64,000 nt of DNA, taken from NCBI RefSeq assembly GCF_048403405.1, contig NZ_CP183129.1, one strand, 5' to 3'. This document shows positions 33,894-62,729 of this stretch, in pieces. The DNA comes from Escherichia coli. Lineage in GTDB: Bacteria; Pseudomonadota; Gammaproteobacteria; Enterobacterales; Enterobacteriaceae. The notes beneath the pieces were generated by a model. It saw nothing but the letters and a program-made list of their open reading frames with translations, was not told the DNA's origin and did no database searches. The translations under genes were made by a program, and so were the position numbers. Every line of letters begins with the position of its first letter. The stretch's first letter is position 1.

Positions 33894-34353
33894 CCGTCTA
33901 ACTCCGTGGTTAATGGGTGAGTGGTATTTTCTGTTGTGCAGAGCATGAGACGCTATTTGACCTGGCTGGTCAGTGGATGAAACAACAGATAAAGAAAAGG
34001 CGGACAATCCGCCCGCCTGTCATGATTTGTACTCACTTATTTCCCGACTGACAATTTACATAGCCAAAACGCTATCAAATCTGACAGTCTGCTTTGAGCG
34101 AGGAGCGGAAGTTAAGGGGCGGTTTAGTATCTAACATGATCTATATGAAATAGTGATTCTTGGCGTATTGCTAATACAACCCCGATTTGATGTAACTCTT
34201 GTCCACTTTCATCTAACTTCCTCTTGTTCAGGTTCATTTTTAACTGCTAATATGCAGTATATAAAGGAACATGGGTTTACCGTTGTAAGATGCTGCTGAA
34301 AGGTAAGCATAATTATATTGTTAGGTGTCTTTTTATTTTTAAAGGCTTTAAAC

Positions 34354-35460
34354 ATGTCTAAAACACGCGATGATTTCAGCTCAAAAACTGTAAGAGCTCT
34401 AGCACTACGGGCTGGTTATAGGTGCTCATTCCCCGGTTGTAATCAGCTTACAGTTGGCCCCAGTGATGAATCCTTAACATCTATCACAAATATTGGGGTA
34501 GCTGCGCACATTCATGCCGCAGCTCCTGGGCCATTAGCAAGACGATATGATCCTAATCAAACACCAGATGAAAGGAAAGATATAAATAATGGCATCTGGA
34601 TGTGTGTTAATCACAGCGTTGAAATTGATAGAGATGAAATTAGATATACAGCAGAAATTCTTAAAGAAATGAAGAAAGCCCACGAAGAAGAGATTAAAAA
34701 AGAGGTGAGCAATGGTTCTTCATCAACCAAACATAATGATTTCATTGCAATAGGTATAGACATTATCGTTTTCGGAGAGCTTACCGGAATCTCAACCAAT
34801 GAGTGGACTATAAAATTTGCAAACTTCTTTACTGGCGATTTATCTAAGTTAATATCTTTCAACGAAAGATTCCACTCCATCCCTACCGAAGAAAAATTTA
34901 TTCTAGTTAATCAACTTGGTGAGGGGCGTTTGTTATCAGCACCAATAAAATTAAATAAATTACCAGATAGCTATGAAGTAATCGTCCCTGTTGAAATAGA
35001 CACTCCGCGCATCAATTGCAATAGCCTCCCAATGGATTTAGATATTTTCACGACAGGCGATTTATTTGTAAATAGTTCTGGTGATATAGCTACGATATCG
35101 GGGTTTGAAGCTTTACCACAAAAAATATATACTTCCCTTTCCACCATTAGAGGTGAGATTTATTCCCATCCAACATTGGGTTCCAGAATAAGACAGTTCT
35201 TCCATGACTTTGAAGGAACAATGTGGCTAGACAAATTAGTTAAATTAGAAGTTATACGCTTATCTTGTATACCAATTTTTGATTCAATCACAAAAAACAA
35301 ATACACTCCATTACATTGTGTAAAAAATGTCAAAAATATTCGGGTGATACCAACTGAATATAAAGATAGCAAATTACCTATTGAGTTCACCCTTGATATT
35401 GAAGGTTTCGGCATCTGGTCCAAAGAAATAAGTGTTTTCTCACCTAAATACGATGAATAA
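34354..35460 (+). CDS. accessory (moron) protein with N-terminal HNH-nuclease-like motif; function unknown
   Basis: ORF 34318..35460 (TTG); probable ATG start 34354 with AAAGG SD. Motif RCSFPGC...AAHIHAAAPG...NNGIWMCVNHSVEID fits the HNH pattern; AT-rich; at the P2 Z/fun variable position. Confidence 0.6.
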   Translation: MSKTRDDFSSKTVRALALRAGYRCSFPGCNQLTVGPSDESLTSITNIGVAAHIHAAAPGPLARRYDPNQTPDERKDINNGIWMCVNHSVEIDRDEIRYTAEILKEMKKAHEEEIKKEVSNGSSSTKHNDFIAIGIDIIVFGELTGISTNEWTIKFANFFTGDLSKLISFNERFHSIPTEEKFILVNQLGEGRLLSAPIKLNKLPDSYEVIVPVEIDTPRINCNSLPMDLDIFTTGDLFVNSSGDIATISGFEALPQKIYTSLSTIRGEIYSHPTLGSRIRQFFHDFEGTMWLDKLVKLEVIRLSCIPIFDSITKNKYTPLHCVKNVKNIRVIPTEYKDSKLPIEFTLDIEGFGIWSKEISVFSPKYDE

Positions 35461-35932
35461 AATTGAAGTTCTTGAACCGCTATATTTGGCTCCGGTATTT
35501 ACTCCGTGAGTGGTATCCTAGGGCCCTGTGCGGAGGATTTCATTGTAATGCTCATACGCTGTAGCCAGGTTCATGTTTCTTCAGCAAGGCCATTTGGGCT
35601 AGTGGCCTGCTCCCCATTGCTCCACACAAAAAATTATTCGTTACGTCCGCTCCTGGCACACAGTAGACATCGAGAGACAGCTTCGAGCGATAATCAGAAG
35701 TTCGCAATTGTCATCACCCAAAAGTTGTTTATAACTTGTAGCAAGGTGCATTGTTCAACGTTGAGTTGGTCAAGTTCAGTTAATGATCGGACGATATCTC
35801 ACTCTGCCCAATAGCACATCTGTTTTACGGGAAGTGAGTTTCAACATCACGAGCTTTGTTAGTAAACATCACTTATTTATTAAGAATATGTTTCATAGAA
35901 CAGGGCCGGAGAACTTAATTTCATATTCTAAA

Positions 35933-35954
35933 AAGTGATGCGCAGACATCACTT
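35933..35954 (-). terminator. hairpin downstream of the 353-aa cargo gene
   Basis: AAGTGATG-cgcaga-CATCACTT about 30 nt after the stop at 35984. Confidence 0.35.
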
Positions 35955-35983
35955 TAAACTTTTTAAAGCGCGAAAACCCTACG

Positions 35984-37045
35984 TCAGAATTTGACAGTAG
36001 GAACGGTTGGCCAGATTCTAGCAATAGACTTAAACATAGTCTCCACAATATATTCGAGAACCTCATCATCAGGCTCTTTCATTAATGCTTTTACTTTATT
36101 TATTCTATCCTGAAGTGAAGGGTGAGATTTTGAAAAACCCCAGTTGTTTTTACCTAACATAGTAACGCTGAATAATGCACAGTATATAGAAAGTCTTCTT
36201 TTCCTGCTCACCAACACACGGTCATACATAGACTCTTCACAGTAATTATCTATATGGTCAAGGATGAATTTATTTGCAAACTCATCACATGAGAACTCTT
36301 CATTATGAGCTTGTTCTTGTGTGAATTCATTCATATCATAACTGGTACCTTCCTGCTGATGAATGATATGTCGGACTTCATGCAAAAATGCCCAAGCAGC
36401 AGCAATAATTGCTAATTCAGCTGTTGCTCTTTTAACTGGTTCGATTTTACTGTCAGGCATGGTGCCAGGTTCAGGAATTCCTATTGGTAGTGGTTTTTCA
36501 TCCGGTACCTCATCTTTAGCCGTGTTTTCAAAAGCGCAGATTAACTGTTCAAAGTTTACGAAGTCTGCCGAACTGAAATCAGCAAGTTCTTCCTGTAGCT
36601 CCTCGAGTAAAACATGTAATTCTGACTCGGTTGAGACTAATGATATTTTCTTTGAGTCAAAAAGATCTAAAATAGAATCCCTTTTATCGATAATGTCTTC
36701 AATTTTTTTATTTTGCTCAGTGTTTATTGCTTCGTAGCCCGCCATTGCAGCAAATGTTCCTATCCAGAACGTGCGCAAAACACGATGATTGAAGCGGATA
36801 AATCGATACATCCCCGCATCAAAAATAAATTTACCGTCTGTATGATTATCGCTATGATTTTGGAAGGTCATGTTAAATTTAGACCAGAACTCATCCAGTT
36901 CATTCTGACGCTCTGGAATAGAGGCTAAAAACATTTTTCTTACGCTGTCCTGAACTGTTTTATCTTCATTATGCTCTTCAAACATTTGCTCACCTATATT
37001 GCTGTTAATTTTATCTAATGATGAACCGAGTGGGTTGTTTACCAA
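35984..37045 (-). CDS. accessory (moron) protein with HEXXH motif (putative zinc metallopeptidase-like); function unknown
   Basis: ORF starts at TTG 37045; more likely ATG 36985 with AGGTGA SD. Motif FLHEVRHIIH; AT-rich; convergent with the HNH gene. Confidence 0.5.
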   Translation of the reverse strand: MVNNPLGSSLDKINSNIGEQMFEEHNEDKTVQDSVRKMFLASIPERQNELDEFWSKFNMTFQNHSDNHTDGKFIFDAGMYRFIRFNHRVLRTFWIGTFAAMAGYEAINTEQNKKIEDIIDKRDSILDLFDSKKISLVSTESELHVLLEELQEELADFSSADFVNFEQLICAFENTAKDEVPDEKPLPIGIPEPGTMPDSKIEPVKRATAELAIIAAAWAFLHEVRHIIHQQEGTSYDMNEFTQEQAHNEEFSCDEFANKFILDHIDNYCEESMYDRVLVSRKRRLSIYCALFSVTMLGKNNWGFSKSHPSLQDRINKVKALMKEPDDEVLEYIVETMFKSIARIWPTVPTVKF

Positions 37046-37248
37046 GCCTCATGTTACATGTTTTTTGCTTTCCGAATATTTAAGCGTTAGAAGCAAGTAG
37101 GAAAAACGTAGAGCAGTTAACCAAGGCTTTCTACAGGCAGATTAACATAACTTGGTCAGGAATGTCCGCTCTTGGCACATAGCGGACTGTCAGATTAGGC
37201 TTTACTCTGTGCTATAGATATGTAAGCTCACACCAGAGATCATACAAC

Positions 37249-37776
37249 TTATTGCGGCATTTCCGGCCATTCGGGATTTGCAGGATCCACACGACTGACC
37301 AGAACGCTGTAGCGTTCCCATGCTTCCAGTCGGCTGCGTTCCTCATCCGTCGCCATATTCAGCCTGACAGCGCGTTCCAGCGGCAAAATCACGGATTCAG
37401 CTTCGGAAAGTAAAGCTGCCTTTTGTGATTCTGCCTGTTGCTCCTGTTCATCTGCCGTATAAATCCGCTTAATCACGGCACCATCCTTAAACATCCATTT
37501 ACCTGAGTCATCAGCACGTCGGTTGGAGGTAATATCAGGAACCTCGACAACGCTGAAACCTTCAGGGTTAAGCGTTGAAGCATCTCTGGTGATGCCGACA
37601 ATTATATTATTCTCGTCGTAAACAATCTTTATCGTGTCTTCCTGAAAATTACTTACTTCCTCATACCAGTTTTTTCCCTCTTCGGACCATAACCAGATAA
37701 CATCAAAATTTTTTGTCAGTTGATATTGGGCAACAGTTTTTGGATTACCCGCAGTAATATTTTTTAAATGCTGCAT
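37249..37776 (-). CDS. G: tail fiber assembly protein G
   Basis: 175-aa ORF; matches P2 G. Confidence 0.88.
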
Positions 37777-37779
37777 AAA

Positions 37780-39825
37780 TTACACCTGTGCGACGTTATA
37801 CCATGTGCCATTGATGTATTTTTGTATTGGCCTGAATACTGCGGGGTCATCACCATCGACTTCACCGACAATACCAAGCCCGGTAATTACGTGCCCTGCT
37901 TTCTCATACATCACCCCTTTCTGCATGGTCTGGACAACACGTGTGCCAAGTCTGATATCTCTCACATAGCGGGAATCAAAGTTACCGTAATCCGAGGGAT
38001 TAACACGCCCCGTAATATTTATGGTCTTATTACTTTGAATGCTTCCGGAAACAAAGCGCATAACATGGACGTTATTAGCATAAACATCCAGATTACCATC
38101 GCCATTTTGTTTAAATCCGGTGTCGTTATCACCAAGAACAATAGAGTTCCCACCCAACGCGTTATTCGTGCCAAGTGCCAGCCCGCCATCAATCCTGGCA
38201 CCATTACCAACAGACACAACTCCTGTTCTTAAGTTGATGCCGAATGGCCTTAATGGCCCAATATCTCCATTTTCACCCTCATTTTCTCGTGTAGGAATGA
38301 TATACAGGTTTTCTTCAGAACGGCGAAAAATAGCACCAAAAGATGAATTAAATATCCTCAGCGCATTGACTGTAGATATTTTTACTTCACTGCTGAAAAG
38401 GGCTTTAACAAGAACATACAGAGCATCCCATTTAAGATTCATCAGGTCTTTTGTTGTGGTGCTCTGGCGACTTCTCCATTTGAAATATTCATTGCCGTTA
38501 TCCCCCGTTTCAAACCACATGTATGAATCAGTGTCACCATCGGCATCATTTTTAAATCCAATCTTCGCCCAGTCAGTATTTCGAATCCAGGCAAGGATTG
38601 AGTCGTTTTCAAAAGTAAGTCCACCGGACAAGGTATCGCCATTTTTTTGCACGGCGTTCCCGGCTCGGTTTACCGTTTCCTGTAAACCGAGATATTCGAT
38701 AACGGCGGCAACGGTCGATTTAGCCAGAATATCCCGCCCGACTTTTGTCAGGGTCGCCAGGCTGGCAACATCATTCCCCGTAAAATACGGAAACCTGTCT
38801 GCCGCAGTAGCAAGCCCCGCCAGCGCCGTCAAAGTGGCATCTTTCGGTTGCTTACCCGCAAGCGCATTAGTCATGGTGGTAGCAAAATTCGGGTCATTGC
38901 CCAGCGCCGCCGCCAGCTCGTTCAGCGTATTCAGTGCGTCAGGCGACGAGTCTACAAGGGCGGCAATCGCGGCCATAACGAAAGCCGTGTTTGCGATCTG
39001 AGTATTATTCGTTCCCTGTCGCGCAGTTGGCGTCGTTGGCGTTCCGGTCAGTGCAGGGCTGTTTAATGGCGCTTTCTTGTTCGTTTCATCCATTACCGTC
39101 TTAACGGCTTTTGGTGTTGCGGCGAGCGTTTCAGACGTGCTGTTGGTCGCACTACTGAGCTGGACAAGGCCTTTTCGCGCTATGGTGGCGTCCTGTGCGG
39201 TATATTTCCCGTTAGCAAGGTCATACGCGGCCTTTACCGCTTTCGGCGTTGCGGCCAGTGTTTCAGACGTGCTGTTGGTCGCACTGCTTAACTGAGTAAA
39301 ACCTTTTGCGGTCAGCGAGGCGTCAGGGTGACGTCGTGACTGTTCATGTTCTGCAATTTTGTCATCAACGTAATCCTGCGTTGCCATCACCGTTGTGGTG
39401 TCAATGGTCAGCTCCACTGAGGCCACACTGCTGACGATGATGACCATGCGGCAGGTCTGCGAACGCCCTGAGCCTTCGGCAAGGGCTGGCTTATAACTTT
39501 CGGCCATGTTCGCCACGGCAATTAGCGTTCCCGCATCATCGTACAGGCCAAGTTCACGCATCCAGAAACCGCCCACCTCCGGCGGAATAACCAGCTCTGC
39601 GATAATATAATTACTGTTTCGTTTGTCCTGGCTGATTTTGTTCAGCGCATGTCGCCAGACTTCGTGGATAAGCCCGGTCTGTCCGGCATCCGGGACAGGC
39701 AATTTACCACCGCCATCCCCGACGGCCATCGTGGTAATGTTGACCTTCCGCCCTCCCGGTGCGGTTGCCGCTGCCAGCTTTGCTGCACCGGCAGTGGTGA
39801 TAACGGTTTTGAATTTTGTGCTCAT
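37780..39825 (-). CDS. H: tail fiber protein H
   Basis: 681-aa ORF; conserved N-terminus MSTKFKTVITTAGAAKLAAA; internal repeat QLSSATNSTSETLAATPKAVK. Confidence 0.9.
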   Translation of the reverse strand: MSTKFKTVITTAGAAKLAAATAPGGRKVNITTMAVGDGGGKLPVPDAGQTGLIHEVWRHALNKISQDKRNSNYIIAELVIPPEVGGFWMRELGLYDDAGTLIAVANMAESYKPALAEGSGRSQTCRMVIIVSSVASVELTIDTTTVMATQDYVDDKIAEHEQSRRHPDASLTAKGFTQLSSATNSTSETLAATPKAVKAAYDLANGKYTAQDATIARKGLVQLSSATNSTSETLAATPKAVKTVMDETNKKAPLNSPALTGTPTTPTARQGTNNTQIANTAFVMAAIAALVDSSPDALNTLNELAAALGNDPNFATTMTNALAGKQPKDATLTALAGLATAADRFPYFTGNDVASLATLTKVGRDILAKSTVAAVIEYLGLQETVNRAGNAVQKNGDTLSGGLTFENDSILAWIRNTDWAKIGFKNDADGDTDSYMWFETGDNGNEYFKWRSRQSTTTKDLMNLKWDALYVLVKALFSSEVKISTVNALRIFNSSFGAIFRRSEENLYIIPTRENEGENGDIGPLRPFGINLRTGVVSVGNGARIDGGLALGTNNALGGNSIVLGDNDTGFKQNGDGNLDVYANNVHVMRFVSGSIQSNKTINITGRVNPSDYGNFDSRYVRDIRLGTRVVQTMQKGVMYEKAGHVITGLGIVGEVDGDDPAVFRPIQKYINGTWYNVAQV
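39101..39311. repeat. imperfect direct repeat (about 80 bp, two copies) inside tail fiber gene H
   Basis: Copies at 39101-39179 and 39233-39311 share an identical 26-nt core GTTTCAGACGTGCTGTTGGTCGCACT. Confidence 0.8.
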
Positions 39826-41271: not shown

Positions 41272-41619
41272 TCAACTCACAGGGATGGTTAATGAAAGTG
41301 GCTGGCCGGTGTCGTTGTGCTGGCCGGTTAACGTGACCGTCATTCGCCCGTCAAAGCTGCGCGCCGTGGTAACGGATGACAGGGTGACGCGGGGTTCCCA
41401 TTTCAGCACCGCCATGTAACAGGCGACCTTAATCTGCAACTCAAGCGCCGGGGTCTGCGGCTGGTCAATCATTGACGCCAGCAACGAGCCGTAATCACGA
41501 CGCATCACCCGTGAGCCGACCGGCGTGCGCAGGATATCGCCGATACTCTGGCTGATATGCTCAAGGTCAGTGACAGTCAGGCCATCACTGCGATTCATTC
41601 CGAGATAACGCGCTGTCAT
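41272..41619 (-). CDS. W: baseplate wedge protein W
   Basis: 115-aa ORF; P2 order. Confidence 0.85.
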   Translation of the reverse strand: MTARYLGMNRSDGLTVTDLEHISQSIGDILRTPVGSRVMRRDYGSLLASMIDQPQTPALELQIKVACYMAVLKWEPRVTLSSVTTARSFDGRMTVTLTGQHNDTGQPLSLTIPVS

Positions 41620-42257
41620 TTTGTCCCCTGCGTCCAGTTGTCACCTGACTTAACACCACCGTGACCGTGGTCATCCACCTGAACGCCGTTAGAAGTGAAT
41701 TTCCCGTCGGTATGCTCGATGTTGCCGTGCATCTTCCCGCCCTTCTGCACTTCCAGCGTGCCGGTAATCAGCCTGTTGGTGCAGACCACCTCCGGTGTGT
41801 CCAGGGTGACGCGGGTTGATGCTTTCACCATGACCACCGGCACCGTGGCAGTAACAGAATCAGAAGCCGTCACGCTGGCTGTTTTAATTCCGCTTACCGT
41901 GAGTGCACTGGTTTCGGGTTCATATTCAATCACCGCCCCGTCAGGGAAACGGATATGCAGGGCATCCGCCGACGCAGACGGCGCGGGGTTATCGCCGGAA
42001 TAAATCCCCGGCAGAACGAACGCCGTGTCGAGTTCACCGCCCACGGCCAGAATCAGCACCTGCTCCCCCACGGAAGGTGCCCACCATGTGCGCGAACGAC
42101 CGGCACGATGGGTCAGCCACTGAAGCCAGTCAGTGCACATGCCGCCGGTCTGCACACGGCAGCGACCGGCGTTAAGGTCGGTTTCGACGATAATGCCGGT
42201 GCGAATCATGTTGCGCAGTGCGCGCGCGAGTTCCTGAATATTTGCGAGAGTGTTCAT
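41616..42257 (-). CDS. V: baseplate spike protein V
   Basis: ORF 41616..42275; start placed at ATG 42257 (MNTLANIQELARAL...). Confidence 0.87.
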   Translation of the reverse strand: MNTLANIQELARALRNMIRTGIIVETDLNAGRCRVQTGGMCTDWLQWLTHRAGRSRTWWAPSVGEQVLILAVGGELDTAFVLPGIYSGDNPAPSASADALHIRFPDGAVIEYEPETSALTVSGIKTASVTASDSVTATVPVVMVKASTRVTLDTPEVVCTNRLITGTLEVQKGGKMHGNIEHTDGKFTSNGVQVDDHGHGGVKSGDNWTQGTK

Positions 42258-42340
42258 GCATGTGAGATTGCACAATATATAAAAGTTATGCTATCTGGAT
42301 TCATTTGTAGAACTACCAGACAACATTCAAGGAGAGCGTA

Positions 42341-43126
42341 ATGGTCAGCTATAATGTGACTAATGTGTGGGGGCTAATCGTTTTTTTCCTTTGTAGCTTT
42401 GCAGTATTAGCATTTTTTAGCTTTGGTAAAAGTAACCTTATGAGGCTTATTGCACATTATTTCAATTTTGGATATTCAGACAAAAAATTAAAAAGACTTG
42501 ACCGCGAGTGGCGCGACATTCAACTATTTAAAATAATTAATGGAATCAATGTATCAGGCATTGAAAATGTGAGAATGATACAGCAGGGACTGATTGATGG
42601 AAAACTAAAAACATCGTATTTTTTCCTTACTCGCATCTGGGGTGACATAACAAAACCACCACACATAATTAAAACAATAATTGTAATTCTGGCCAGTATT
42701 TTTTACATTCTCCTCGCATGTTACATACACAACGAACAATCCGTTATAGTAAGGGATGCCATAGGCATACCATATAAAAACATGATGTACTATGTTTATA
42801 GTGACAAAGTTCTTTTATCCTTCAAAAATAAAGCAGTTGAATTTAATAAAACTTATAGCCTTGCCGATTGCAAGAGACTGCAAAACGTATTTATAAAAGA
42901 CACACTTCCTGAGATCGCCTGCAATAAGCTCTTACAGCTAAACGAGGAGGACTCCGAATGGTTAAGCCAGGAGATTAAAGATAATAACAGTCACAAAAAA
43001 GCATTATTAATACTATCCCTCGTCTATTTCACTTCAGGTCTGGTTATATTCCTGTCATATACAAAATTCTTTTACGCCAATAAGAAGGTTTTAGAATACA
43101 AAGCATCAAATAAAAATCACTCATAA
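42341..43126 (+). CDS. accessory membrane protein (3 predicted TM helices), function unknown
   Basis: 261-aa ORF with strong SD AAGGAGAG; very AT-rich; opposite strand to flanking V and S; at the P2 orf30 position. Confidence 0.6.
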   Translation: MVSYNVTNVWGLIVFFLCSFAVLAFFSFGKSNLMRLIAHYFNFGYSDKKLKRLDREWRDIQLFKIINGINVSGIENVRMIQQGLIDGKLKTSYFFLTRIWGDITKPPHIIKTIIVILASIFYILLACYIHNEQSVIVRDAIGIPYKNMMYYVYSDKVLLSFKNKAVEFNKTYSLADCKRLQNVFIKDTLPEIACNKLLQLNEEDSEWLSQEIKDNNSHKKALLILSLVYFTSGLVIFLSYTKFFYANKKVLEYKASNKNHS

Positions 43127-43197
43127 ACCTCTAAACATTGAGCGACCAGCATGGCCGCTCAATGTTTAATTGCGCATCAGCCTCTGCCTGGATAAAA

Positions 43198-43650
43198 CTA
43201 ACGCTCAAGGTGAGTCAGGATAATCTCTTCAATCATCTGCACATCCTCACCGGTAAAGCTGAGCAGAGGACGCGCCGGATAATCAATTTTCTTACCGTCT
43301 TTCCGGGTTTCTTCCGACAGACCGAACTGATGCACACTGGCGATTTTCGGCGACTTCCCGCCGTAAAATTCCATTGATGCCTGTTCCGGGCTGGCGCGGA
43401 TATGCAAAAAACGACTGGTGATAAGTTTCGCAAACATTTTTCGCTTAACACGACCGGTCTTTTTTCTGGCGCTCTGCTGCTGGCGTGGCGCGTAGGGTGT
43501 GCCGTCCGGGGCTTTCTGTGCCATCACCCGACGCTGCTGACTCTGCCGCAGACGCTTCGCCAGCTCTGCACTCAGCCGCCGACGCCCTGACGGTGACAGC
43601 GACTCAATCAGTCCGGTCAGCCGGTCTTCAAAACGCTTAAACTCATTCAT
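43198..43650 (-). CDS. S: tail completion protein S
   Basis: 150-aa ORF; P2 order. Confidence 0.85.
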   Translation of the reverse strand: MNEFKRFEDRLTGLIESLSPSGRRRLSAELAKRLRQSQQRRVMAQKAPDGTPYAPRQQQSARKKTGRVKRKMFAKLITSRFLHIRASPEQASMEFYGGKSPKIASVHQFGLSEETRKDGKKIDYPARPLLSFTGEDVQMIEEIILTHLER

Positions 43651-52405: not shown

Positions 52406-53113
52406 CTATATATACTTCCTTTTTACTCTACTTAATTCTATCACTGATGAGGAGTGACAAAATGACAAATTAATAGTATCGATATAATCCAAAATTTGAC
52501 TCTCAACCTCAATAAAAATATTTTTGGGCCCATTACTAATCGATATACCGATTTCATCCAAAACAGCCATCATTTTTCTCTGATGAGTTTTATATTTATA
52601 GTCTTTATTTTCCTCTGTAATATGTGCATTGGCTTCCTCAATAACACATTTGATTCTAGATATTATTTCTAGATAATCTCTCGAAACAGATATATCACCG
52701 CCTTGCGCTTCAGGGAACATAACCCTATACCATCTAAAAAAATTAACTTTCTCTGGATAGATGCTACTTCTTTTAGTTAACTCAGCACTTGCAAATTCTC
52801 TAAACATCGTCAGATGACTAGTGTAATTACTATTATTATTATTTTTAACTCCAGCGTTATATGTCATCAAAGCAATCATAACACCAAAAACGGTAACAAA
52901 AGTTGTTATAAGCCATCCAAACGCCTGAAAATACATTACTATACCAGATGTTTTTTCCGCAAAAAATTTTAAGCACTGGCTATCGAAGCATATATCACGC
53001 TCATATAGCTTTTCATTCTGAATAGTTTCAAAAAGAGAAATTAGCGAAAAAATCAAAAAAAGAGCTGACGACACACCGACAATATATTTGAGAAGTCTAA
53101 TATTTGCATTCAT
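52406..53113 (-). CDS. 2-TM membrane protein, translationally coupled to the upstream reverse transcriptase (candidate effector)
   Basis: 235 aa; start ATG overlaps the RT stop (ATGA at 53113-53110); two N-terminal hydrophobic helices; AT-rich. Confidence 0.6.
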   Translation of the reverse strand: MNANIRLLKYIVGVSSALFLIFSLISLFETIQNEKLYERDICFDSQCLKFFAEKTSGIVMYFQAFGWLITTFVTVFGVMIALMTYNAGVKNNNNSNYTSHLTMFREFASAELTKRSSIYPEKVNFFRWYRVMFPEAQGGDISVSRDYLEIISRIKCVIEEANAHITEENKDYKYKTHQRKMMAVLDEIGISISNGPKNIFIEVESQILDYIDTINLSFCHSSSVIELSRVKRKYI

Positions 53114-54384
53114 AATGGTTTTAAAGATGCCAATCTAGATTTAAAACACTCCAGTTTTTCTTTAAATGATTCAGAGCGAGTAAGAATAATCATCTTATAT
53201 CTCGTCAAATCATATTTTCTTTTATACCAATGTTTATTTTGATTACCTTTCGAATACGACAACTCTAAACTTTTTATAGCTGCATCAATCACAGCAACAT
53301 CTCTTTTAGATGGCATCGGTTTTATTGCCTGCAACTGTTTCTTGAATGATTCATATTTTTCATGCCCAACACGGCCAAGCTTATTCACTCTCCCCATACA
53401 TCTATTGAATTCTTTTCTGTATGCAACACTTGTTTTTGTGTTATTTTTTGCCGCCAGTAATTTCAAATTATGTATAGATGCCCTGATTCTTTTGACTTCA
53501 TCGGATGGTAGTCGAGGTGAGTCATAGTCAACTCTTAAACCATGTACTTTTATAGGTTCAGATGAACAGTGAAATATTTTTGTTTTGTGCTTATTTATCG
53601 GCAAGTCATGCTCAGAAAGCATCCTCTCTATATGGCTTTGCATTTGAGAAAAATCATAATTACTTATTTTAGATGACACGGTAATATCATCTACCAAACG
53701 CGTATAAACAAGTCCTTTCCTCTGCGCACGTCTTACCACATCCCCTTCAACAGCGAATAAACACAAAGTTGCTATATAGCTTGATGTTAAGGCCCCCTGT
53801 ACGACAAAATCATCCTTAGTACATATATCCACCAAGTATTCAAGAGCCTCATCCTTAATATGCAATATCTCCTCAAACACGCTCCTAACCAGATCTCTAT
53901 GGATATTATCGAAAAAATTACTTATATCCACCTTGAGAACTGTTTTTGCTCCACAATGAGCCTTTGCACATGAAACATAGTCACGTTTGACATTAGAATT
54001 TAAAACATCATTTTTACTGGGAACTGAACCAAACAAAAATGAAGGAAAAACAACCAATTCCTTAAAAATACGTTTATTAATTCTACTCTGTAATAATCTC
54101 ATTTTAGGATGTAGGGAGTAGACAATCCGTTTGCTTCCGTCAATTTTGGGAATTTCTTTTAGAGTATATTTCTCATCTAATGATAATTCTGCAATAGCTT
54201 TAAGCTCTTCAACAGAAATCGATAAAGCCTTTGACAACTTTTCAAGTGTTGTGATAGGAGCATTGGATTTGCTGTATGGTTTAAATTTATCCATAAACAT
54301 ACCATTCAAATTCAAAGTTACGTACGGTCTTCCCATACTCAAGGGTGGAACAGCAGAGATGCTTACATCAACAATTGTCAGCAA
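53110..54384 (-). CDS. retron-type reverse transcriptase with about 100-aa C-terminal extension
   Basis: RT motifs IPKIDGSKRIVY, CAKAHCGAKTVLKVDISNFFDNI, QGALTSSYIATLCL, YTRLVDDITV (YxDD), IKVHGL. Track start is TTG 54384; in-frame ATGs at 54336, 54300, 54294. Confidence 0.75.
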   Translation of the reverse strand: MLTIVDVSISAVPPLSMGRPYVTLNLNGMFMDKFKPYSKSNAPITTLEKLSKALSISVEELKAIAELSLDEKYTLKEIPKIDGSKRIVYSLHPKMRLLQSRINKRIFKELVVFPSFLFGSVPSKNDVLNSNVKRDYVSCAKAHCGAKTVLKVDISNFFDNIHRDLVRSVFEEILHIKDEALEYLVDICTKDDFVVQGALTSSYIATLCLFAVEGDVVRRAQRKGLVYTRLVDDITVSSKISNYDFSQMQSHIERMLSEHDLPINKHKTKIFHCSSEPIKVHGLRVDYDSPRLPSDEVKRIRASIHNLKLLAAKNNTKTSVAYRKEFNRCMGRVNKLGRVGHEKYESFKKQLQAIKPMPSKRDVAVIDAAIKSLELSYSKGNQNKHWYKRKYDLTRYKMIILTRSESFKEKLECFKSRLASLKPL

Positions 54385-54625
54385 CAGCCTCTGCTATCTT
54401 TCGACCGTACGTAATGTCGTCGGCTACGGCACCATCGTAGTTGACGACGGTGGGGCCTCGCTGATAGGTCCATAGTGGACGCTTTTTTGTAAAAGCAAAA
54501 ACTGACAATTTAATGTTGTTGACTGCCGCATACCAAGCGAATCGCTGGTGCGCTAAGAATAATGCAACAAAAAAATAAGAATTTCAACCGGGTAACTGCA
54601 AGCCAGCGACATCGTTTAGCGCGCA

Positions 54626-54644
54626 GTGCTTTCCCCGCCTCGCC
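54626..54644. other. phage cos site (19-nt cohesive-end sequence)
   Basis: GTGCTTTCCCCGCCTCGCC is the reverse complement of the P2 cohesive end GGCGAGGCGGGGAAAGCAC as I recall it; located between Q and the A-side genes as in P2. Confidence 0.7.
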
Positions 54645-54805
54645 CGCCCGCTTCGTGGGGCGGTTTTAATGCAGGTGCAATACCGCTTTTGAGCCACGCC
54701 CGTCCTGGCGGACGCACGGCCGGAACATGCAACTCCGGCACATGCAAAACCATGCACATATTGCACGCAGAAAGATAAATGCCAAAATACCTAAATCAAC
54801 TTCCA

Positions 54806-56644
54806 TTAATCAGCCAGATAAGGTTCAACTTTATCTTCCCATACACTAAATAAAGGCAAACAAGTTAAATAAAAGATAAAGACACAGGCAAAAACTGAAG
54901 TTGGTTGATAACAATGATTTACAGTATACCTGCCATGAGCCATCGTGTGTCTAATTGCAGCACCACCTTTCATATTGAACAATAAATCCATAGTCAATAC
55001 ATGATCACTATCAAAAACACCTTCCATTTCACTCCTATAATTTGCAAGCATTTGAGATAGGCTAGTAGCCTCCTCAAAAAGCGACACATCTATTTTCGTT
55101 GTTTCTTTTCTTCTTAATTCTAAAATCCATCTAATTGAATTCTCCAATTGCGGCAATAACAAATAACAGGCAGACACATAATCTCCCTGCCAAAGCTTAT
55201 AAAACCCCAAAGAAAATATTTCTGCATACCCAGGTGGAACAAATGCACTTTGTTGTGAGATTGGGTCAAATGTATTTTCATTTAATGAATACCTAGCCAA
55301 CACACTTTGCCTAACGACTTCAAACTCACCACAAACATAGACCTGATGCTCAATGTTACTAGTTCTTAAATAATTTGCACAAGCATCATTTAAACTTATA
55401 TCCCCCGCAGGATCCAAAGGTGAACGACTTGCTACAACGCGCCCTCTATCATCATAAACAACCGTTTCACTCATATTAAGAAAAAAATGTTTTTTAGCAT
55501 CGGAACGAGCTCTTTCCATAATTTCACTGGCACTTACAATCTTAAATCTAGCAATTAAAGTTTTAATTACCCTTGAGAAATCCAATTGATTATAAACATG
55601 CTCTTTCTGAGCGATAACATCACTAAGATCCATTGGTATTGCAAAGAAGTGCATTTCATCATTGATTTGATCTCGAATAGAATTCAATTCCTCTCTAATC
55701 TTTTTAATTTCTTCATTCATTCCACCAATTGCTCTAAATTCGCCAAGAGCAACTCTTAACCAATGAGCCTTCAATATTGAAGATGAAGACTGTTCAAATT
55801 GAGCCAATGTTATTTCTGACGCTTTAATTCTGCACCGTCTTCCTTGCTCTTCCATATCGTTTTTAACATATAATTCAGACGCAAAATAAAACAATTTTTT
55901 CACTGCATCAAAATAAGACGCTCCACAATGCTCATCAGCTATCTTTTCTGCATTCTCAGCCAATTGCAAGGGACACAATAAATTATTCTTATAAAGAATT
56001 TCAGAAACTCTTAATACACCGGTGAATATACCAGAGTCTATTAATACATGATATAACCTTAATGTCGAATCAACTATCCCCCCTTGTAGTTGTTTTTTCC
56101 TGCCAATAAGCATGCGCGATATTGCGATACCTCTATCCAAGCAGTCAACAACATCAAAAATATGGATATCACCTGACTCTTGTTTTTCTATTAAAGTATC
56201 GCAAGCATCATTAACCATTAGAGAATATGACTCTATTGCTTTATTGGCAGAGTCTATATCCTTACGGTTATTTATCCATAAAACATCACACACCCTAGAT
56301 ATAATATAAGGATTATCGGAGTTTTCTTTAATACAAGTTAATATTGTTGAAAAACTCTCCTTATAATCTGAAGGCCTATAGCCCCTCTCAGGATAGAGAA
56401 TGATTTTTGGCTCAAAACCGATAATATCACCAGACCTAGAAAATTTAAAATTAAACAACGCACGTAATAAATAGCAAAGCCGCCAAGAACTTACATCGTT
56501 TTTTAGCTTGTAAGATGACAACAACTGAACAAAATAAGACTCCATATCAAAATGAGAATAACTTCTTGGCGATGATAATATACTGGCGTATTCACTTTTT
56601 TTAAAATCATCAACTGAAATAGAAAAAACATCAAACTCGCTCAT
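54806..56644 (-). CDS. large accessory protein of unknown function (612 aa) at the P2 tin/old position
   Basis: ATG 56644 with strong SD AGGTGAGGA; no Walker A or other recognised motif except a possible Rx4H (IRHTMAHGRY) near the C-terminus; AT-rich. Confidence 0.6.
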   Translation of the reverse strand: MSEFDVFSISVDDFKKSEYASILSSPRSYSHFDMESYFVQLLSSYKLKNDVSSWRLCYLLRALFNFKFSRSGDIIGFEPKIILYPERGYRPSDYKESFSTILTCIKENSDNPYIISRVCDVLWINNRKDIDSANKAIESYSLMVNDACDTLIEKQESGDIHIFDVVDCLDRGIAISRMLIGRKKQLQGGIVDSTLRLYHVLIDSGIFTGVLRVSEILYKNNLLCPLQLAENAEKIADEHCGASYFDAVKKLFYFASELYVKNDMEEQGRRCRIKASEITLAQFEQSSSSILKAHWLRVALGEFRAIGGMNEEIKKIREELNSIRDQINDEMHFFAIPMDLSDVIAQKEHVYNQLDFSRVIKTLIARFKIVSASEIMERARSDAKKHFFLNMSETVVYDDRGRVVASRSPLDPAGDISLNDACANYLRTSNIEHQVYVCGEFEVVRQSVLARYSLNENTFDPISQQSAFVPPGYAEIFSLGFYKLWQGDYVSACYLLLPQLENSIRWILELRRKETTKIDVSLFEEATSLSQMLANYRSEMEGVFDSDHVLTMDLLFNMKGGAAIRHTMAHGRYTVNHCYQPTSVFACVFIFYLTCLPLFSVWEDKVEPYLAD

Positions 56645-60659: not shown

Positions 60660-60916
60660 TTCCAGACCCTCCGGCTTTTCAGAAAGGTCAGAGCCTTCTT
60701 TAACGGACTCTGTTTTTTGGTGCGGATAATGATTCCCTTACGCCCCTTACCGTGGGTAATGGTGAAGTCAATCGCCCTTGGGCTTTCGTTACGCAATAAC
60801 TGAGCAATACAACGAGGCTCGTTCATCCTTTCCACCTTAAGCCGCACGGCCATGTCTTGATTTGCTGTAACTAATGCGATTTTTCCAGTCATGCCATTAT
60901 GTCGGAGCTTCATCAA
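60656..60916 (-). CDS. hypothetical early protein (P2 orf78 position)
   Basis: 86-aa ORF between cox-like gene and B. Confidence 0.55.
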   Translation of the reverse strand: MMKLRHNGMTGKIALVTANQDMAVRLKVERMNEPRCIAQLLRNESPRAIDFTITHGKGRKGIIIRTKKQSPLKKALTFLKSRRVWK

Positions 60917-61175
60917 CTAGCTGGGCTGCGTACTTGTCCCACTCACGGCGATTAATCCATAACTCAGCATGACCGCCCGGCTTTAATGGGTCCGTCATAT
61001 AAAAGGCTGGTAACTTGCCTGCTTTCGCCATTTCAGCAACAGCGCGAGGCGTCTTACCGATGTAAAGAGCAAAACCCTCTTTCGAGAGCAAATCCGACGG
61101 TGCGGCTGCAAGTTTGATGTCACATTTTTTACTTTTTGTGAGATCAGATACTTTTTCTCCAACATCGTTATTCAT
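60897..61175 (-). CDS. cox: Cox-like excisionase/transcriptional regulator
   Basis: ORF 60897..61223; HTH-like segment ALYIGKTPRAVAEMAKAGKLPAFYMTDP resembles P2 Cox; start probably ATG 61175 (about 92 aa), uncertain. Confidence 0.65.
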   Translation of the reverse strand: MNNDVGEKVSDLTKSKKCDIKLAAAPSDLLSKEGFALYIGKTPRAVAEMAKAGKLPAFYMTDPLKPGGHAELWINRREWDKYAAQLVDEAPT

Positions 61176-61297
61176 TTCTGATCCAATACTCATTTTGATA
61201 TCCTCAACTTTGGTGCCATTCAACCAGAGCTATTTGAAGCCGCTCTGCGTTGTTCTGGCGTGTCGCATACAACATAAATTACGAGATACGACAATTC
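61176..61297. promoter_or_regulatory. lysogeny/lysis switch region (divergent Pe/Pc promoters and operators)
   Basis: Intergenic region between divergent cox-like and C genes, as in P2. Confidence 0.5.
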
Positions 61298-61609
61298 ATG
61301 TCAAATACACAAATCACATCTCAAGCAGAGAAACTCGCACTTATTCGGGAATCAGAAAGAATGACAAGGAAGCAAGTTGCTGAATTAACTGGAATTAACT
61401 ACAACACCTATGCTGGATATGAGCAGGGAAAAGTAAAGATGTCTTTTGACGCAGGTATGAAATTTTTCAAGCCAGAAAGATTTCGCAAGTACCGTGACTG
61501 GTTCATGTTTGATGAAACTGATCCCGCTGGCGGACAAATAGCCCCGGCGCTCGCGCACATTGGGCAAGACTCAACAACCTTGCACCACTCAGACCAAAAG
61601 ACTGGCTGA
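61298..61609 (+). CDS. C: immunity repressor C (HTH)
   Basis: ORF 61250..61609; start placed at ATG 61298 (MSNTQITSQAEKLALIRESERMTRKQVAELTGINY...); C-terminus GQIAPALAH...SDQKTG resembles P2 C. Confidence 0.8.
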   Translation: MSNTQITSQAEKLALIRESERMTRKQVAELTGINYNTYAGYEQGKVKMSFDAGMKFFKPERFRKYRDWFMFDETDPAGGQIAPALAHIGQDSTTLHHSDQKTG

Positions 61610-61702
61610 CGATTTATTCAGCATATGTGTGCAGTAAATGTACGAAAGAAAATTGCATTAATTTTCAAGTAGTAGAAGTAAACAGCGTCATCGGAGGGCT
61701 TT

Positions 61703-62698
61703 ATGTCTATTAAAAAGCTCGATGATGGTCGTTATGAAGTGGACGTCAGACCGCAGGGTGCAGATGGAAAACGTATCAGGCGGAAATTTAAAACTAAAGG
61801 TGAAGCTCAAGCATTCGAACGTCATGTGCTGGTTAACTACCACAACAAAGAGTGGCTGGAGAAGCCAGCCGACCGCCGAACTCTTACAGAGTTGTTAGGC
61901 AGATGGTGGATATATCACGGAAAATCACATGAGCGTGGAAATATTGAACGGGGGCGTTTGACGACAATAATCGCCAAATTTGCAGAAATGGGGGTGTCCA
62001 GAGCTGACCAGTTAACAAAGAAAACGATAACTGATTATCGAGTTGTAATGATGAACGATGGTCTAAAACCAGCCAGCGTAAATCGGCATCTGGCAATAAT
62101 GAGCGGGATGTTCACCAAGTTAATTGACGCCGGTGAATACCACTCTCACAACCCGTTCCGTGAGGTTAAGCGGTTACGTGAAGCTGTTACAGAAATGGCT
62201 TTTTTGTCCAGTGAAGAGATTACGCGGCTGTTATCCATGCTTGATGGTGATGAGTTAAATGCAACTCTGGTCTGCCTTTCTACTGGTGGACGCTGGAGTG
62301 AAGTGTCTAATTTGAAAGCTGAACACATCATTAACCAGATGGTTACGTTTATGAAAACTAAAAACGGAAAGCGCAGGACAATTCCCGTTTCGCAGGACCT
62401 GATTAAAAGGATCAAGACCAAAAATTCAGGCAGGCTTTTTAATGCCAGTTACTACAAAGTGCGTAACGCTCTCAGGGAAGTAAAACCCGATTTACCTGAC
62501 GGACAAGCAGTACATGTTTTGAGGCATACATTTGCCACACATTTTATAATGAATGGAGGTAACATAATCACATTGCAGCGCATCCTGGGTCATTCTAACA
62601 TTCAGCAAACTATGACCTACGCACACTTTGCACCGGATTTCTTACAAGATGCTGTGACTCTTAACCCGGTGTCAGGAATGTCCATAATGCGTCCATAA
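61703..62698 (+). CDS. int: tyrosine integrase
   Basis: 331 aa; MSIKKLDDGRY N-terminus; catalytic HVLRHTFATH and TYAHF; adjacent to attR. Confidence 0.9.
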   Translation: MSIKKLDDGRYEVDVRPQGADGKRIRRKFKTKGEAQAFERHVLVNYHNKEWLEKPADRRTLTELLGRWWIYHGKSHERGNIERGRLTTIIAKFAEMGVSRADQLTKKTITDYRVVMMNDGLKPASVNRHLAIMSGMFTKLIDAGEYHSHNPFREVKRLREAVTEMAFLSSEEITRLLSMLDGDELNATLVCLSTGGRWSEVSNLKAEHIINQMVTFMKTKNGKRRTIPVSQDLIKRIKTKNSGRLFNASYYKVRNALREVKPDLPDGQAVHVLRHTFATHFIMNGGNIITLQRILGHSNIQQTMTYAHFAPDFLQDAVTLNPVSGMSIMRP

Positions 62699-62729
62699 AC
62701 CAGAGTTAACTAGAGCCAATTGAAGCGAT

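What the first reader, a model, noticed from the sequence alone, without database searches (positions are those of the whole stretch)
42341..43126. Inverted-orientation AT-rich membrane protein between V and S
A 261-aa ORF with a strong SD (AAGGAGAG) and three predicted TM helices is on the opposite strand to the surrounding tail and baseplate operon and is much more AT-rich than the backbone. Small membrane proteins in this P2 slot are plausible superinfection-exclusion or abortive-infection factors; its function is unknown.
Basis: partly seen in the sequence, partly recalled or inferred. Interest (0 to 1): 0.5.

Follow-up and report, generated by a model that had tools for sequence, protein, structure and literature searches.

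The report
Phage P2 orf30 membrane gene
This is the long-known but never characterised orf30 gene of phage P2, a small membrane protein sitting backwards between two tail genes, and it belongs to a fast-evolving family that keeps this same position in many P2-type prophages and most likely protects the lysogen against other phages, although no experiment has shown that.

Summary
Window 42341-43126 (+) holds a 261-aa ORF with an AAGGAG ribosome site and three transmembrane helices. It has 34% GC against 55-59% in the flanking genes and lies antisense between tail genes V and S.

It is not new. It is bacteriophage P2 Orf30, 260/261 residues identical. GenBank annotates it only as "nonessential", and it falls in PHROG 2407, "unknown function". 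It has no Pfam, PADLOC or NCBIfam match, no informative structural match, and no functional paper in the library searched.

New context found here:
- Relatives only about 20% identical occupy the same V-S slot, antisense, in 9 of 12 sampled lineages. One prophage carries a tandem pair.
- Every member keeps GC3 at 0.25-0.36.
- dN/dS is about 0.45, against 0.03-0.2 for the neighbouring genes.
- In complete E. coli genomes that carry this backbone, about 28% have orf30, about 60% have an empty 66-bp slot, and a few have unrelated cargo.
- The predicted topology is N-out/C-in, with a conserved cytoplasmic helical domain and a periplasmic domain containing two conserved cysteines.

My best guess (about 0.35) is a prophage-expressed inner-membrane superinfection-exclusion protein that is analogous to P22 SieA but not homologous to it. 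The function remains untested.

The parts
42341..43126 (+). orf30 coding sequence (261 aa plus stop). It is P2 Orf30 with one substitution, T141I.
   Evidence: PHROG 2407 E=5.5e-149
42329..42336 (+). Shine-Dalgarno sequence AAGGAGAG, 6 nt before the ATG.
   Evidence: SD-like AAGG/GGAG motifs also precede the homologues in L007, L013, L018 and L019.
42258..42340 (.). 83-bp divergent V/orf30 control region. It contains the site P2 annotates as the late-activator (Ogr) binding site for pV, which maps to window 42299-42326. Any orf30 promoter must overlap the pV core region around the TATATA at 42276-42281. No clear sigma-70 match was found.
   Evidence: P2 annotation transferred by alignment. The scan found no + strand promoter upstream of the ORF. 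The conserved CACAACA half-site is present in all slot variants. The promoter placement is inference.
42365..42427 (+). TM1 (residues 9-29). The N-terminus is predicted to be periplasmic.
   Evidence: no K/R in the N-terminus of any of the 29 family members
42428..42664 (+). Predicted cytoplasmic helical domain (residues 30-108). It carries the family's best-conserved motif, D59-x-QLF(K/R)-x-x-NGINV...DA...G87-x-L.
   Evidence: Net positive in 29/29 members. Conservation. Helices at pLDDT 86-94.
42665..42727 (+). TM2 (residues 109-129).
42728..43000 (+). Predicted periplasmic domain (residues 130-220). It has a four-stranded beta-sheet (141-173) plus helices and two conserved cysteines (C177, C194), probably forming a disulfide.
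   Evidence: Model. Exactly 2 Cys in this loop in 28/29 members. C194 is invariant.
43001..43063 (+). TM3 (residues 221-241), followed by a basic cytoplasmic tail (242-261).
43132..43168 (.). 17-bp inverted repeat forming a shared terminator hairpin for the convergent orf30 and S (O operon) transcripts.
   Evidence: Folding energy is -22.4 kcal/mol on the + strand and -29.9 on the - strand, z about -4.8. P2 annotates it as the putative O-operon terminator.
41616..42257 (-). Flanking gene V (baseplate spike). Its start lies 83 bp from the orf30 start and it is transcribed divergently.
43198..43650 (-). Flanking gene S (tail completion), convergent with orf30.

Best explanation
Shown: the ORF is the orf30 gene of a P2-type prophage. 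It forms a self-contained antisense cassette with its own ribosome site and a terminator shared with S. The cassette replaces the 66-bp V-S spacer found in most related E. coli prophages. It encodes a protein with three hydrophobic segments and belongs to a family that keeps this exact slot and orientation across very divergent P2-type prophages.

Predicted: the topology is N-terminus out and C-terminus in. An ~80-residue cytoplasmic helical domain carries the conserved motif. A ~90-residue periplasmic domain has a beta-sheet, helices and a likely disulfide.

Inferred mechanism, untested: the gene is transcribed from the repressed prophage by host RNA polymerase, from a weak promoter that overlaps the silent late promoter pV. 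The protein inserts into the inner membrane and acts as a superinfection-exclusion factor, interfering with genome delivery or another envelope step of competing phages without killing the cell. In this it would resemble P22 SieA, HK97 gp15 and T4 Imm. When late genes are activated, activator and polymerase at pV would occlude the orf30 promoter.

The confidence figure applies to this mechanism. The identification as P2 Orf30 is essentially certain.
For: Identity:
- The protein is 260/261 aa identical to P2 Orf30.
- Synteny with P2 V, S, the terminator and the activator site is complete.

Accessory, independent unit:
- It is antisense, has an SD and a strong bidirectional hairpin.
- It is present in 446 of 1579 E. 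coli genomes with the backbone. Most of the others have an empty 66-bp slot.
- P2 annotates it as nonessential.

Real, selected protein: dN/dS is 0.3-0.5, and motifs are conserved across 29 sequences down to 17% identity.

Signatures often seen in conflict genes:
- dN is 5-10 times that of S and V.
- Two divergent tandem paralogues sit in one prophage.
- The allele phylogeny disagrees with the flanks. Between window and P2, dS is 0.013 in orf30, against 0.206 in V and 0.111 in S.

Membrane topology: three TM segments, loop 1 net positive in 29/29 members, and a Cys pair in loop 2 in 28/29. The model has pLDDT 84.8.

Location logic:
- This prophage's other two variable slots carry a retron-type RT+2TM pair, PDC-S39, a nuclease-domain protein and a Lit-like protein.
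- In P2 itself those slots hold old, tin and fun.
- P22 sieA has the same layout, antisense right after the ejection-protein genes, with 3 TM segments and sequence types below 30% identical.
Against: - No experiment links Orf30 to any phenotype in the literature searched.
- No PADLOC, Pfam or NCBIfam model matches it.
- It shows no homology to SieA.
- No characterised structure resembles it.
- The classical exclusion phenotypes of P2 lysogens map to old (lambda), tin (T-even) and fun (T5).
- From my own knowledge, P2 vir1 plates on P2 lysogens, so Orf30 cannot strongly exclude P2 itself.
- A functional selection against T4, lambda-vir and T7 recovered systems from the other two P2 hotspots and reports none from this slot. 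This is weak evidence, because I could not verify that orf30 was in that library.
- No convincing sigma-70 promoter was found, so expression in the lysogen is unproven.
- Positional conservation over deep divergence is also what a phage-cycle function would give.
Confidence: 0.35

Rival explanations
1. Abortive-infection or toxic membrane effector. Orf30 sits inert in the inner membrane of the lysogen. When it senses an invading phage component, through its cytoplasmic or periplasmic domain, it oligomerises and depolarises or permeabilises the membrane. The infected cell dies before the invader completes its cycle.
For: - It is a membrane protein with sizeable soluble domains on both sides of the membrane, which could act as sensors.
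- It is accessory and evolves fast.
- The same prophage carries a retron-type RT with a 2TM effector, so membrane effectors are common P2 cargo.
- Among close alleles, substitutions concentrate in the TM helices, with pooled dN/dS 1.3, 0.6 and 2.0.
Against: - No PADLOC match, including to the TM effector models.
- It is a single gene with no partner in most loci.
- Variable TM helices fit simple anchors better than a conserved pore lining.
- No toxicity is reported.
Confidence: 0.17
2. Lysogenic conversion unrelated to phages. Orf30 modifies an envelope or signalling property of the host, for example stress tolerance, colonisation or resistance to a colicin or tailocin. This benefits the lysogen, and so the prophage.
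For: - Family members also occur as chromosomal orphans outside prophages. One sits at a fixed locus between yegQ and yegS and was seen on dozens of contigs. Others lie next to housekeeping genes.
- Its structural relatives are uncharacterised 3-TM proteins across Proteobacteria.
- It is AT-rich like many conversion genes.
Against: - 9 of 12 sampled lineages are inside P2-type tail modules, which ties the family to the phage.
- No enzymatic or transporter fold was recognised.
- Rapid protein evolution is less expected for a housekeeping-like envelope role.
Confidence: 0.15
3. Accessory function in P2's own cycle. Orf30 helps the phage itself, for example by tuning lysis timing, by keeping progeny from injecting into lysing or already infected cells, or by assisting tail or spike function at the membrane. 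This would explain why it stays next to gene V.
For: - Strict positional and orientational conservation beside the spike gene at about 20% identity.
- It shares a control region with the late promoter pV.
- The soluble domains are under purifying selection.
Against: - It is annotated as nonessential.
- It is absent from about 60-70% of otherwise near-identical E. coli P2-type prophages and from the plaque-forming phage L-413C.
- The activator site lies only about 15-40 bp upstream of the ATG, the wrong distance for Ogr-type activation at about -55 towards orf30 (inference).
- Its codon composition is unlike that of the late genes.
Confidence: 0.12
4. Functionless passenger. The ORF is retained only because, in the P2 lineage, its cassette also supplies the pV promoter region and the O-operon terminator, so it cannot be deleted cleanly.
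For: In P2-type carriers the entire V-S spacer, including the activator site and terminator, differs from that of empty-slot prophages.
Against: - The ORF stays intact in 446 genomes.
- dN/dS is clearly below 1 in the soluble domains, at 0.26-0.36.
- Motifs, the Cys pair and the topology are conserved down to 17% identity.
- Orphan copies persist outside phages.
Confidence: 0.03

Closest known systems
Bacteriophage P2 Orf30 (AAD03281.1, GenBank AF063097 9439-10224; 'nonessential')
   Same: 260/261 residues are identical. The position, orientation, SD, upstream activator site and downstream terminator are the same.
   Different: One substitution, T141I. The surrounding prophage differs from P2 in the Z/fun and tin/old cargo, the immunity region and the tail-fibre end.
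PHROG 2407 (unknown function), with a weak link to Pfam DUF6216
   Same: All family members tested match phrog_2407 over their full length, with E values from 1e-29 to 1e-149. 3 of 29 members match DUF6216 at E<=0.001. AFDB structural neighbours include a DUF6216-labelled protein.
   Different: The window protein itself matches no Pfam family, even at E<=10. Neither family has a known function, so membership adds no mechanism.
Salmonella phage P22 SieA (inner-membrane superinfection-exclusion protein; PMC10883804)
   Same: It is prophage-encoded and accessory, has three predicted TM helices, and has sequence types below 30% identical. Its gene lies antisense immediately beside the genes of the DNA-delivery apparatus: 20 and 16 in P22, V in P2.
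   Different: No detectable homology (hhalign probability 0.2%). SieA is 162-164 aa, Orf30 is 261 aa with two ~80-90-residue soluble domains. P22 is a podovirus with ejection proteins, P2 a contractile-tailed phage. Exclusion is demonstrated for SieA and not for Orf30.
HK97 gp15 moron and T4 Imm (small inner-membrane proteins that block phage DNA entry; from my own knowledge, not checked here)
   Same: Each is a single membrane protein. HK97 gp15 is likewise a separately transcribed insert inside the tail gene cluster.
   Different: They are much smaller, with one or two TM segments. No sequence or fold relationship was found in PHROGs or BFVD. The comparison rests on memory.
P2 lysogenic-conversion genes old, tin and fun(Z)
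   Same: They are non-essential genes in variable slots of the same phage, transcribed against the late operons. From my own knowledge they are also AT-rich.
   Different: They have documented exclusion phenotypes (lambda, T-even, T5). From my own knowledge they are soluble proteins. Orf30 is a membrane protein with no known phenotype, and its family keeps its slot across divergent P2-type prophages.

Membership tests
P2 Orf30 / PHROG 2407 | Full-length sequence similarity to P2 Orf30 | tested here: met
   99.6% identity; phrog_2407 E=5.5e-149 over residues 1-261 of 261
P2 Orf30 / PHROG 2407 | Located between baseplate gene V and tail-completion gene S, on the opposite strand | tested here: met
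   The same holds in 9 of 12 sampled divergent lineages.
Moron (independently transcribed prophage insert) | Own terminator, and composition unlike the backbone | tested here: met
   Hairpin at 43132-43168, z about -4.8. GC is 0.34 against 0.55-0.59 in the flanks, and GC3 is 0.36 against 0.60-0.66.
Moron (independently transcribed prophage insert) | Own promoter, active in the lysogen | tested here: inconclusive
   No sigma-70 consensus match upstream on the + strand. Only a weak TTCATG-17-TATATA candidate, found by eye. No expression data were found.
SieA-type superinfection exclusion proteins | Sequence homology to SieA types A-C | tested here: not met
   hhalign of the family profile against P22 SieA gives probability 0.2%. 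No Sie PHROG matched at E<=1.
SieA-type superinfection exclusion proteins | Inner-membrane protein with about 3 TM helices | tested here: inconclusive
   Three TM segments and an N-out/C-in topology are predicted consistently across 29 sequences. Localisation has not been measured.
SieA-type superinfection exclusion proteins | Blocks DNA injection by superinfecting phage when expressed alone | not testable with these tools
   Needs plating, K+ efflux and DNA-entry assays.
Known or candidate anti-phage defence systems (PADLOC-DB v2) | Match to a defence-protein HMM | tested here: not met
   0 families for the window protein at E<=1. Eight divergent relatives at E<=0.1 gave only one insignificant hit, Csm2 at E=0.02 for P0008.
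Pfam DUF6216 | Match to PF19723 above threshold | tested here: inconclusive
   The window protein gives no hit. 3 of 29 relatives match at E<=0.001, with best i-Evalue 1.3e-5. One precomputed 'faint' hit was seen.
Phage lysis proteins (holin/antiholin/spanin) | Membership of the lysis cassette, or a holin/spanin family match | tested here: not met
   The P2 lysis genes Y, K, lysA, lysB and lysC lie upstream of R and S on the other strand. There is no holin PHROG or Pfam match.

The most novel reading that the evidence does not exclude
The Orf30 family would be a previously unrecognised class of superinfection-exclusion protein that is built into the tail module of P2-type phages. It would be a three-pass inner-membrane protein kept beside the spike gene, diversifying under phage-phage conflict. 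It would block genome delivery by competing contractile-tailed phages or tailocins at the inner membrane. Its extreme AT-richness would be maintained by selection, for example for H-NS-dependent control, rather than being a relic of recent import.
Probability: 0.25. Interest if true: 0.55.

Novelty: already known. Interest (0 to 1): 0.3.

Why it matters
P2 is a model temperate phage, and P2-type prophages sit in about 29% of complete E. coli genomes. Orf30 is still annotated with no function in the P2 record. Two of P2's variable slots have recently yielded many new defence systems. The papers read here on P2 hotspots do not treat the V-S slot as one. If Orf30 proves to be an exclusion or defence protein, it would add a third, membrane-based layer to P2-mediated immunity. 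It would also define a new family (PHROG 2407, possibly DUF6216) found across Enterobacterales. The persistent AT-richness at synonymous sites over deep divergence is a small evolutionary puzzle of its own. As a finding from a genome scan, though, this is a rediscovery of an annotated gene.

Tried and rejected
- Pfam, NCBIfam and PADLOC gave no usable match for the window protein. The NCBIfam hit RP671a, at 15 bits against a cutoff of 120, is noise.
- A sequence search of PDB chains returned only insignificant hits to an NDH subunit.
- Foldseek against BFVD found nothing at E<=0.001.
- Foldseek against AFDB50 found only uncharacterised proteins.
- Homology to P22 SieA was rejected.
- The alternative slot cargos, L004 (347 aa, phrog_9373) and L005 (246 aa, phrog_10503, the R18C-type ORF), are unrelated to Orf30.
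- E. coli YegR, at the locus where an orphan family member sits in another enterobacterium, is unrelated, and no remnant lies in the E. coli spacer.
Taxonomic breadth therefore rests on the AFDB hit names.
- Rfam gave only sub-threshold hairpin noise.
- The 5' region has no significant RNA structure (z = +0.41).
- Literature searches for orf30 with P2, for hotspots, for DUF6216 and for P2 lysogen transcriptomes found no functional data. Odegrip et al. 2006 is not held in the library.
- I considered Ogr-dependent late expression of orf30 and rejected it on geometry. The activator site is too close to the ATG.

Full report
**1. What is there**

Window 42341-43126 (+) is an ATG-initiated ORF of 261 codons. 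The sequence AAGGAGAG precedes it at 42329-42336, with 6 nt between GGAG and the ATG. The ORF lies antisense between two genes on the minus strand. One is the baseplate spike gene V (41616-42257). The other is the tail-completion gene S (43198-43650). The two start codons are 83 bp apart. G+C falls from 0.55-0.60 to about 0.34 across the block from roughly 42240 to 43120.

At this composition, a run of 261 sense codons has a probability of about 2e-9. The longest open frame in 5000 shuffles of the block was 190 codons, against 271 observed. No other ORF of 50 aa or more overlaps it.

**2. Identity**

The 2.1-kb region is 97.9% identical to bacteriophage P2 (AF063097). The proteins are 260/261 identical, differing by T141I. 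The AT-rich cassette with both intergenic regions differs from P2 at only a handful of positions.

Three P2 annotations transfer by alignment:
- the late-activator (Ogr) binding site for promoter pV, at window 42299-42326;
- the start of the V operon, at 42257;
- the putative O-operon terminator, at 43132-43168.

That terminator is a 17-bp inverted repeat. It folds strongly on both strands, at -22.4 and -29.9 kcal/mol with z about -4.8. It can therefore end both convergent transcripts.

The window as a whole carries a P2-type prophage from about 27.2 to 62.9 kb. It is 96-97% identical to P2 over the structural and replication genes. Its Z/fun slot, tin/old slot, immunity region and tail-fibre end differ from P2. 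In this region the window is 100% identical to E. coli GN02461.

**3. What is known about Orf30**

The protein matches only PHROG 2407, "unknown function". It has no Pfam match even at E<=10, no PADLOC match and no meaningful NCBIfam match.

Full-text searches found it only in gene tables, as "unknown". It is named as one of three P2 regions, with Z/fun and the TO region, where other P2-like phages carry different and presumably horizontally acquired genes (PMC3091744). In phage R18C a different 741-bp ORF occupies the slot (PMC6823313).

The recent hotspot papers cover other loci:
- the tin/old locus (PMC9122126);
- the tin/old and fun loci (PMC9519451);
- those two plus a tail-cI locus (bioRxiv 2024.10.15.618418).

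None of them mentions the V-S slot. No functional or expression data were found.

**4. The protein**

Kyte-Doolittle analysis gives three clear TM segments, at residues 9-29, 109-129 and 221-241. Across 29 family members:
- the N-terminus has no Lys or Arg in any sequence;
- loop 1 (30-108) is net positive in 29/29, with mean +5;
- loop 2 (130-220) is neutral on average and contains exactly two cysteines in 28/29;
- the C-tail is basic.

This gives an N-out/C-in topology, with loop 1 cytoplasmic and loop 2 periplasmic and probably disulfide-bonded. It is a prediction, not a measurement.

AlphaFold2 with the 29-sequence alignment gives pLDDT 84.8 and pTM 0.72. The model has a helical cytoplasmic domain. 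After TM2 comes a four-stranded sheet (141-173) plus short helices. A long helix then runs into TM3.

The best-conserved motif is cytoplasmic: D59-x-QLF(K/R)-x-x-NGINV...DA...G87-x-L...F-x-x-x-(F/W)G-x-I. G68, G87, C194 and I212 are invariant.

Fold searches were uninformative:
- BFVD gave nothing.
- AFDB50 gave 57 hits at E<=0.001. All are uncharacterised 3-TM proteins of 250-310 aa from Enterobacterales, Pasteurellaceae, Pseudomonas, Xanthomonas and Burkholderiales. A few carry DUF6216, DUF3592 or DUF2207 labels.

Three of the 29 relatives match Pfam DUF6216 weakly. That DUF has no literature.

**5. The family and its genomic behaviour**

A word-seeded search found only five 90%-identity clusters. 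An exhaustive profile search of 1.84 billion representatives found 44, about 25 of them full-length at 17-31% identity.

I looked up the contigs of 12 lineages. Nine lie between a gpV-type gene (PF04717) and a gpS-type gene (PF05069) of P2-type prophages, always antisense. These are P0006, P0021 with its tandem neighbour P0044, P0023, P0026, P0030, P0033, P0036 and P0047. In some of them other small cargo genes share the slot.

Three lineages are chromosomal orphans:
- P0029 lies between yegQ and yegS of a non-E. coli enterobacterium and was seen on dozens of contigs.
- P0016 lies beside a GNAT acetyltransferase gene and a DAHP synthase gene.
- P0017 lies beside a DsbA-like gene.

So orf30 is not a one-off insert in P2. 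It is the local representative of a family that has kept one position and orientation in the tail module while diverging to about 20% identity.

Every member examined has G+C of 0.30-0.38 and GC3 of 0.25-0.36. Its neighbours have GC3 of 0.48-0.79. The AT bias is therefore maintained at synonymous sites. This is unexplained. Either selection maintains it, for example for H-NS-dependent control, or alleles are continually re-imported from a low-GC pool.

**6. Population picture in E. coli**

Of 5426 complete genomes, 1579 carry the V-S backbone. In 446 of them the match covers at least 80% of the V-orf30-S query, which requires orf30.

In an evenly spaced sample of the ranking:
- about 28-30% carry orf30;
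- about 60% have a place of only about 1127-1227 bp;
- about 7% carry other cargo.

The short class has a 66-bp V-S spacer with a GC-rich hairpin. Phage L-413C is also in this class. Two other cargos are unrelated to Orf30: a 347-aa protein (phrog_9373) and a 246-aa protein (phrog_10503).

In orf30 carriers the whole spacer differs from the empty form. Only the CACAACA half-site of the activator site is shared. In P2 the cassette DNA therefore also provides the pV control region and the O-operon terminator.

**7. Evolutionary rates**

I compared seven close alleles: the window, P2, 12474II, YpM_115, P2DC1, P2_4A7b and YpM_46. For orf30, dN/dS is mostly 0.4-0.5, with a range of 0.13-0.53. For S it is 0.0-0.20. 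For V it is 0.10-0.22, excluding the window's V, which has a recombinant C-terminus. dN reaches 0.125 in orf30, against 0.021 or less in V (same exclusion) and 0.012 or less in S.

The gene is therefore under purifying selection, but its protein changes 5-10 times faster than its neighbours.

By domain, pooled dN/dS values are:
- TM1: 1.26
- TM2: 0.57
- TM3: 2.02
- cytoplasmic domain: 0.36
- periplasmic domain: 0.26
- C-tail: 0.25

The counts are small and I did not test significance. Both relaxed anchor helices and intramembrane conflict could produce this pattern.

The allele history disagrees with the flanks. Between the window and P2, dS is 0.013 in orf30, 0.206 in V and 0.111 in S. This indicates cassette exchange by recombination.

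**8. Regulation (inference)**

The consensus scan finds no sigma-70 promoter upstream on the + strand. The activator site lies only about 15-40 bp from the ATG. Any orf30 promoter must therefore sit in the AT-rich 42258-42300 stretch that also holds the pV core. The only candidate I can see is TTCATG-17-TATATA.

This geometry argues against Ogr-activated late expression of orf30. It fits expression in the lysogen followed by occlusion when pV fires. Neither is shown.

**9. Most likely function**

I commit to a prophage-expressed inner-membrane superinfection-exclusion protein, at about 0.35.

The support is circumstantial:
- The gene is accessory, antisense and separately terminated.
- It encodes a membrane protein.
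- It shows fast protein evolution, a tandem divergent paralogue and recombining alleles.
- This prophage's two other variable slots hold defence genes. These are a retron-type RT_IV + 2TM_IV pair, PDC-S39, a Cap4-like nuclease-domain protein and a weak Lit-like peptidase. In P2 itself these slots hold old, tin and fun.
- P22 sieA has the same layout. It encodes a 3-TM inner-membrane protein and lies antisense beside the ejection-protein genes. Its sequence types are below 30% identical, and it blocks DNA injection.

Against this:
- There is no homology to SieA or to any defence model.
- The known exclusion phenotypes of P2 lysogens belong to old, tin and fun.
- From my own knowledge, P2 vir1 plates on P2 lysogens, so homotypic exclusion is unlikely.
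- A functional selection against T4, lambda-vir and T7 reported nothing from this slot.

The rival explanations are:
- an Abi-type membrane effector (0.17);
- a phage-unrelated conversion function, supported by the chromosomal orphans (0.15);
- an accessory role in P2's own cycle, supported by the strict synteny beside V (0.12);
- a functionless passenger (0.03), which the conservation data contradict.

**10. Verdict**

The gene is already annotated and catalogued as PHROG 2407, so I rate its novelty as "already known". What remains open is its function.

This analysis adds family-level facts: deep positional conservation beside the spike gene, persistent AT-richness, elevated dN/dS, a tandem paralogue, chromosomal orphans and the predicted topology. 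Together they make the gene a reasonable and cheap experimental target. They do not establish a mechanism. Interest: 0.3.

Noticed in passing
window 52406-56644: The tin/old slot of this prophage holds a type IV retron-like pair. These are 2TM_IV at 52406-53113 (-), E=4e-85, and RT_IV at 53110-54384 (-), E=1e-176. A 612-aa PDC-S39 candidate defence protein lies at 54806-56644 (-), E=2e-68. They take the place of P2's tin and old.
   Followed up: partly
window 34113-37161: The Z/fun slot holds a 380-aa protein (34318-35460, +) with an N-terminal endonuclease domain like PDC-M68A or CBASS Cap4-type effectors. It also holds a 353-aa protein (35984-37045, -) with a weak Lit-peptidase match, E=1e-9. 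They take the place of P2's fun(Z).
   Followed up: partly
window 27203-62900: A complete P2-type prophage, 96-97% identical to P2 over the late and replication genes. Its int/C/cox immunity region (about 60840-62900) is not P2's. The H tail-fibre C-terminus and G are diverged (37161-38400). The V-orf30-S segment is 100% identical to E. coli GN02461, NZ_CP095533.1.
   Followed up: partly
window 41600-41700: The 3' end of V and the start of W do not align with P2. Matches to P2 start at query base 102, and the window's V ends ...WTQGTK instead of ...GSPL. This inflates dN for the window's V and suggests a recombination junction inside the spike gene.
   Followed up: no
L012 5001-6658: One P2-type prophage carries two tandem Orf30-family genes in the slot, P0021 and P0044. 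They are very divergent from each other. hhalign of the second against the family profile gives E=4e-53.
   Followed up: partly
L021 4001-4765; L009 991-1767; L016 991-1743: Orphan family members lie outside prophages. One sits between yegQ and yegS of a non-E. coli enterobacterium and was seen on dozens of contigs. One lies beside a GNAT acetyltransferase gene and a DAHP synthase gene. One lies divergently beside a DsbA-like gene, which is suggestive given the conserved periplasmic Cys pair. All are as AT-rich as the prophage copies.
   Followed up: partly
L003 859-924 and L006 959-1024 (empty slots): Most E. coli P2-type prophages have only 66 bp between V and S. This spacer holds a GC-rich hairpin (GCCGCCGG-N5-CCGGCGGC) directly before the V start, and the CACAAC activator half-site abuts the S stop. 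The late promoter architecture of V therefore differs between empty-slot and orf30-carrying phages.
   Followed up: no
L027 3800-5440; L029 1965-2899: In other P2-type prophages the V-S slot holds further cargo alongside the Orf30 homologue. L027 has an ORF6N-domain protein plus two small ORFs. L029 has a 180-aa ORF plus a DUF7480 protein. The slot can therefore accumulate several genes.
   Followed up: no
window 42341-43126 versus the flanking genes: Between the window and P2, dS in orf30 is 0.013, but 0.206 in V and 0.111 in S. In other pairs orf30 is the more diverged gene. The cassette's history is therefore uncoupled from its flanks, which indicates recombinational exchange.
   Followed up: partly
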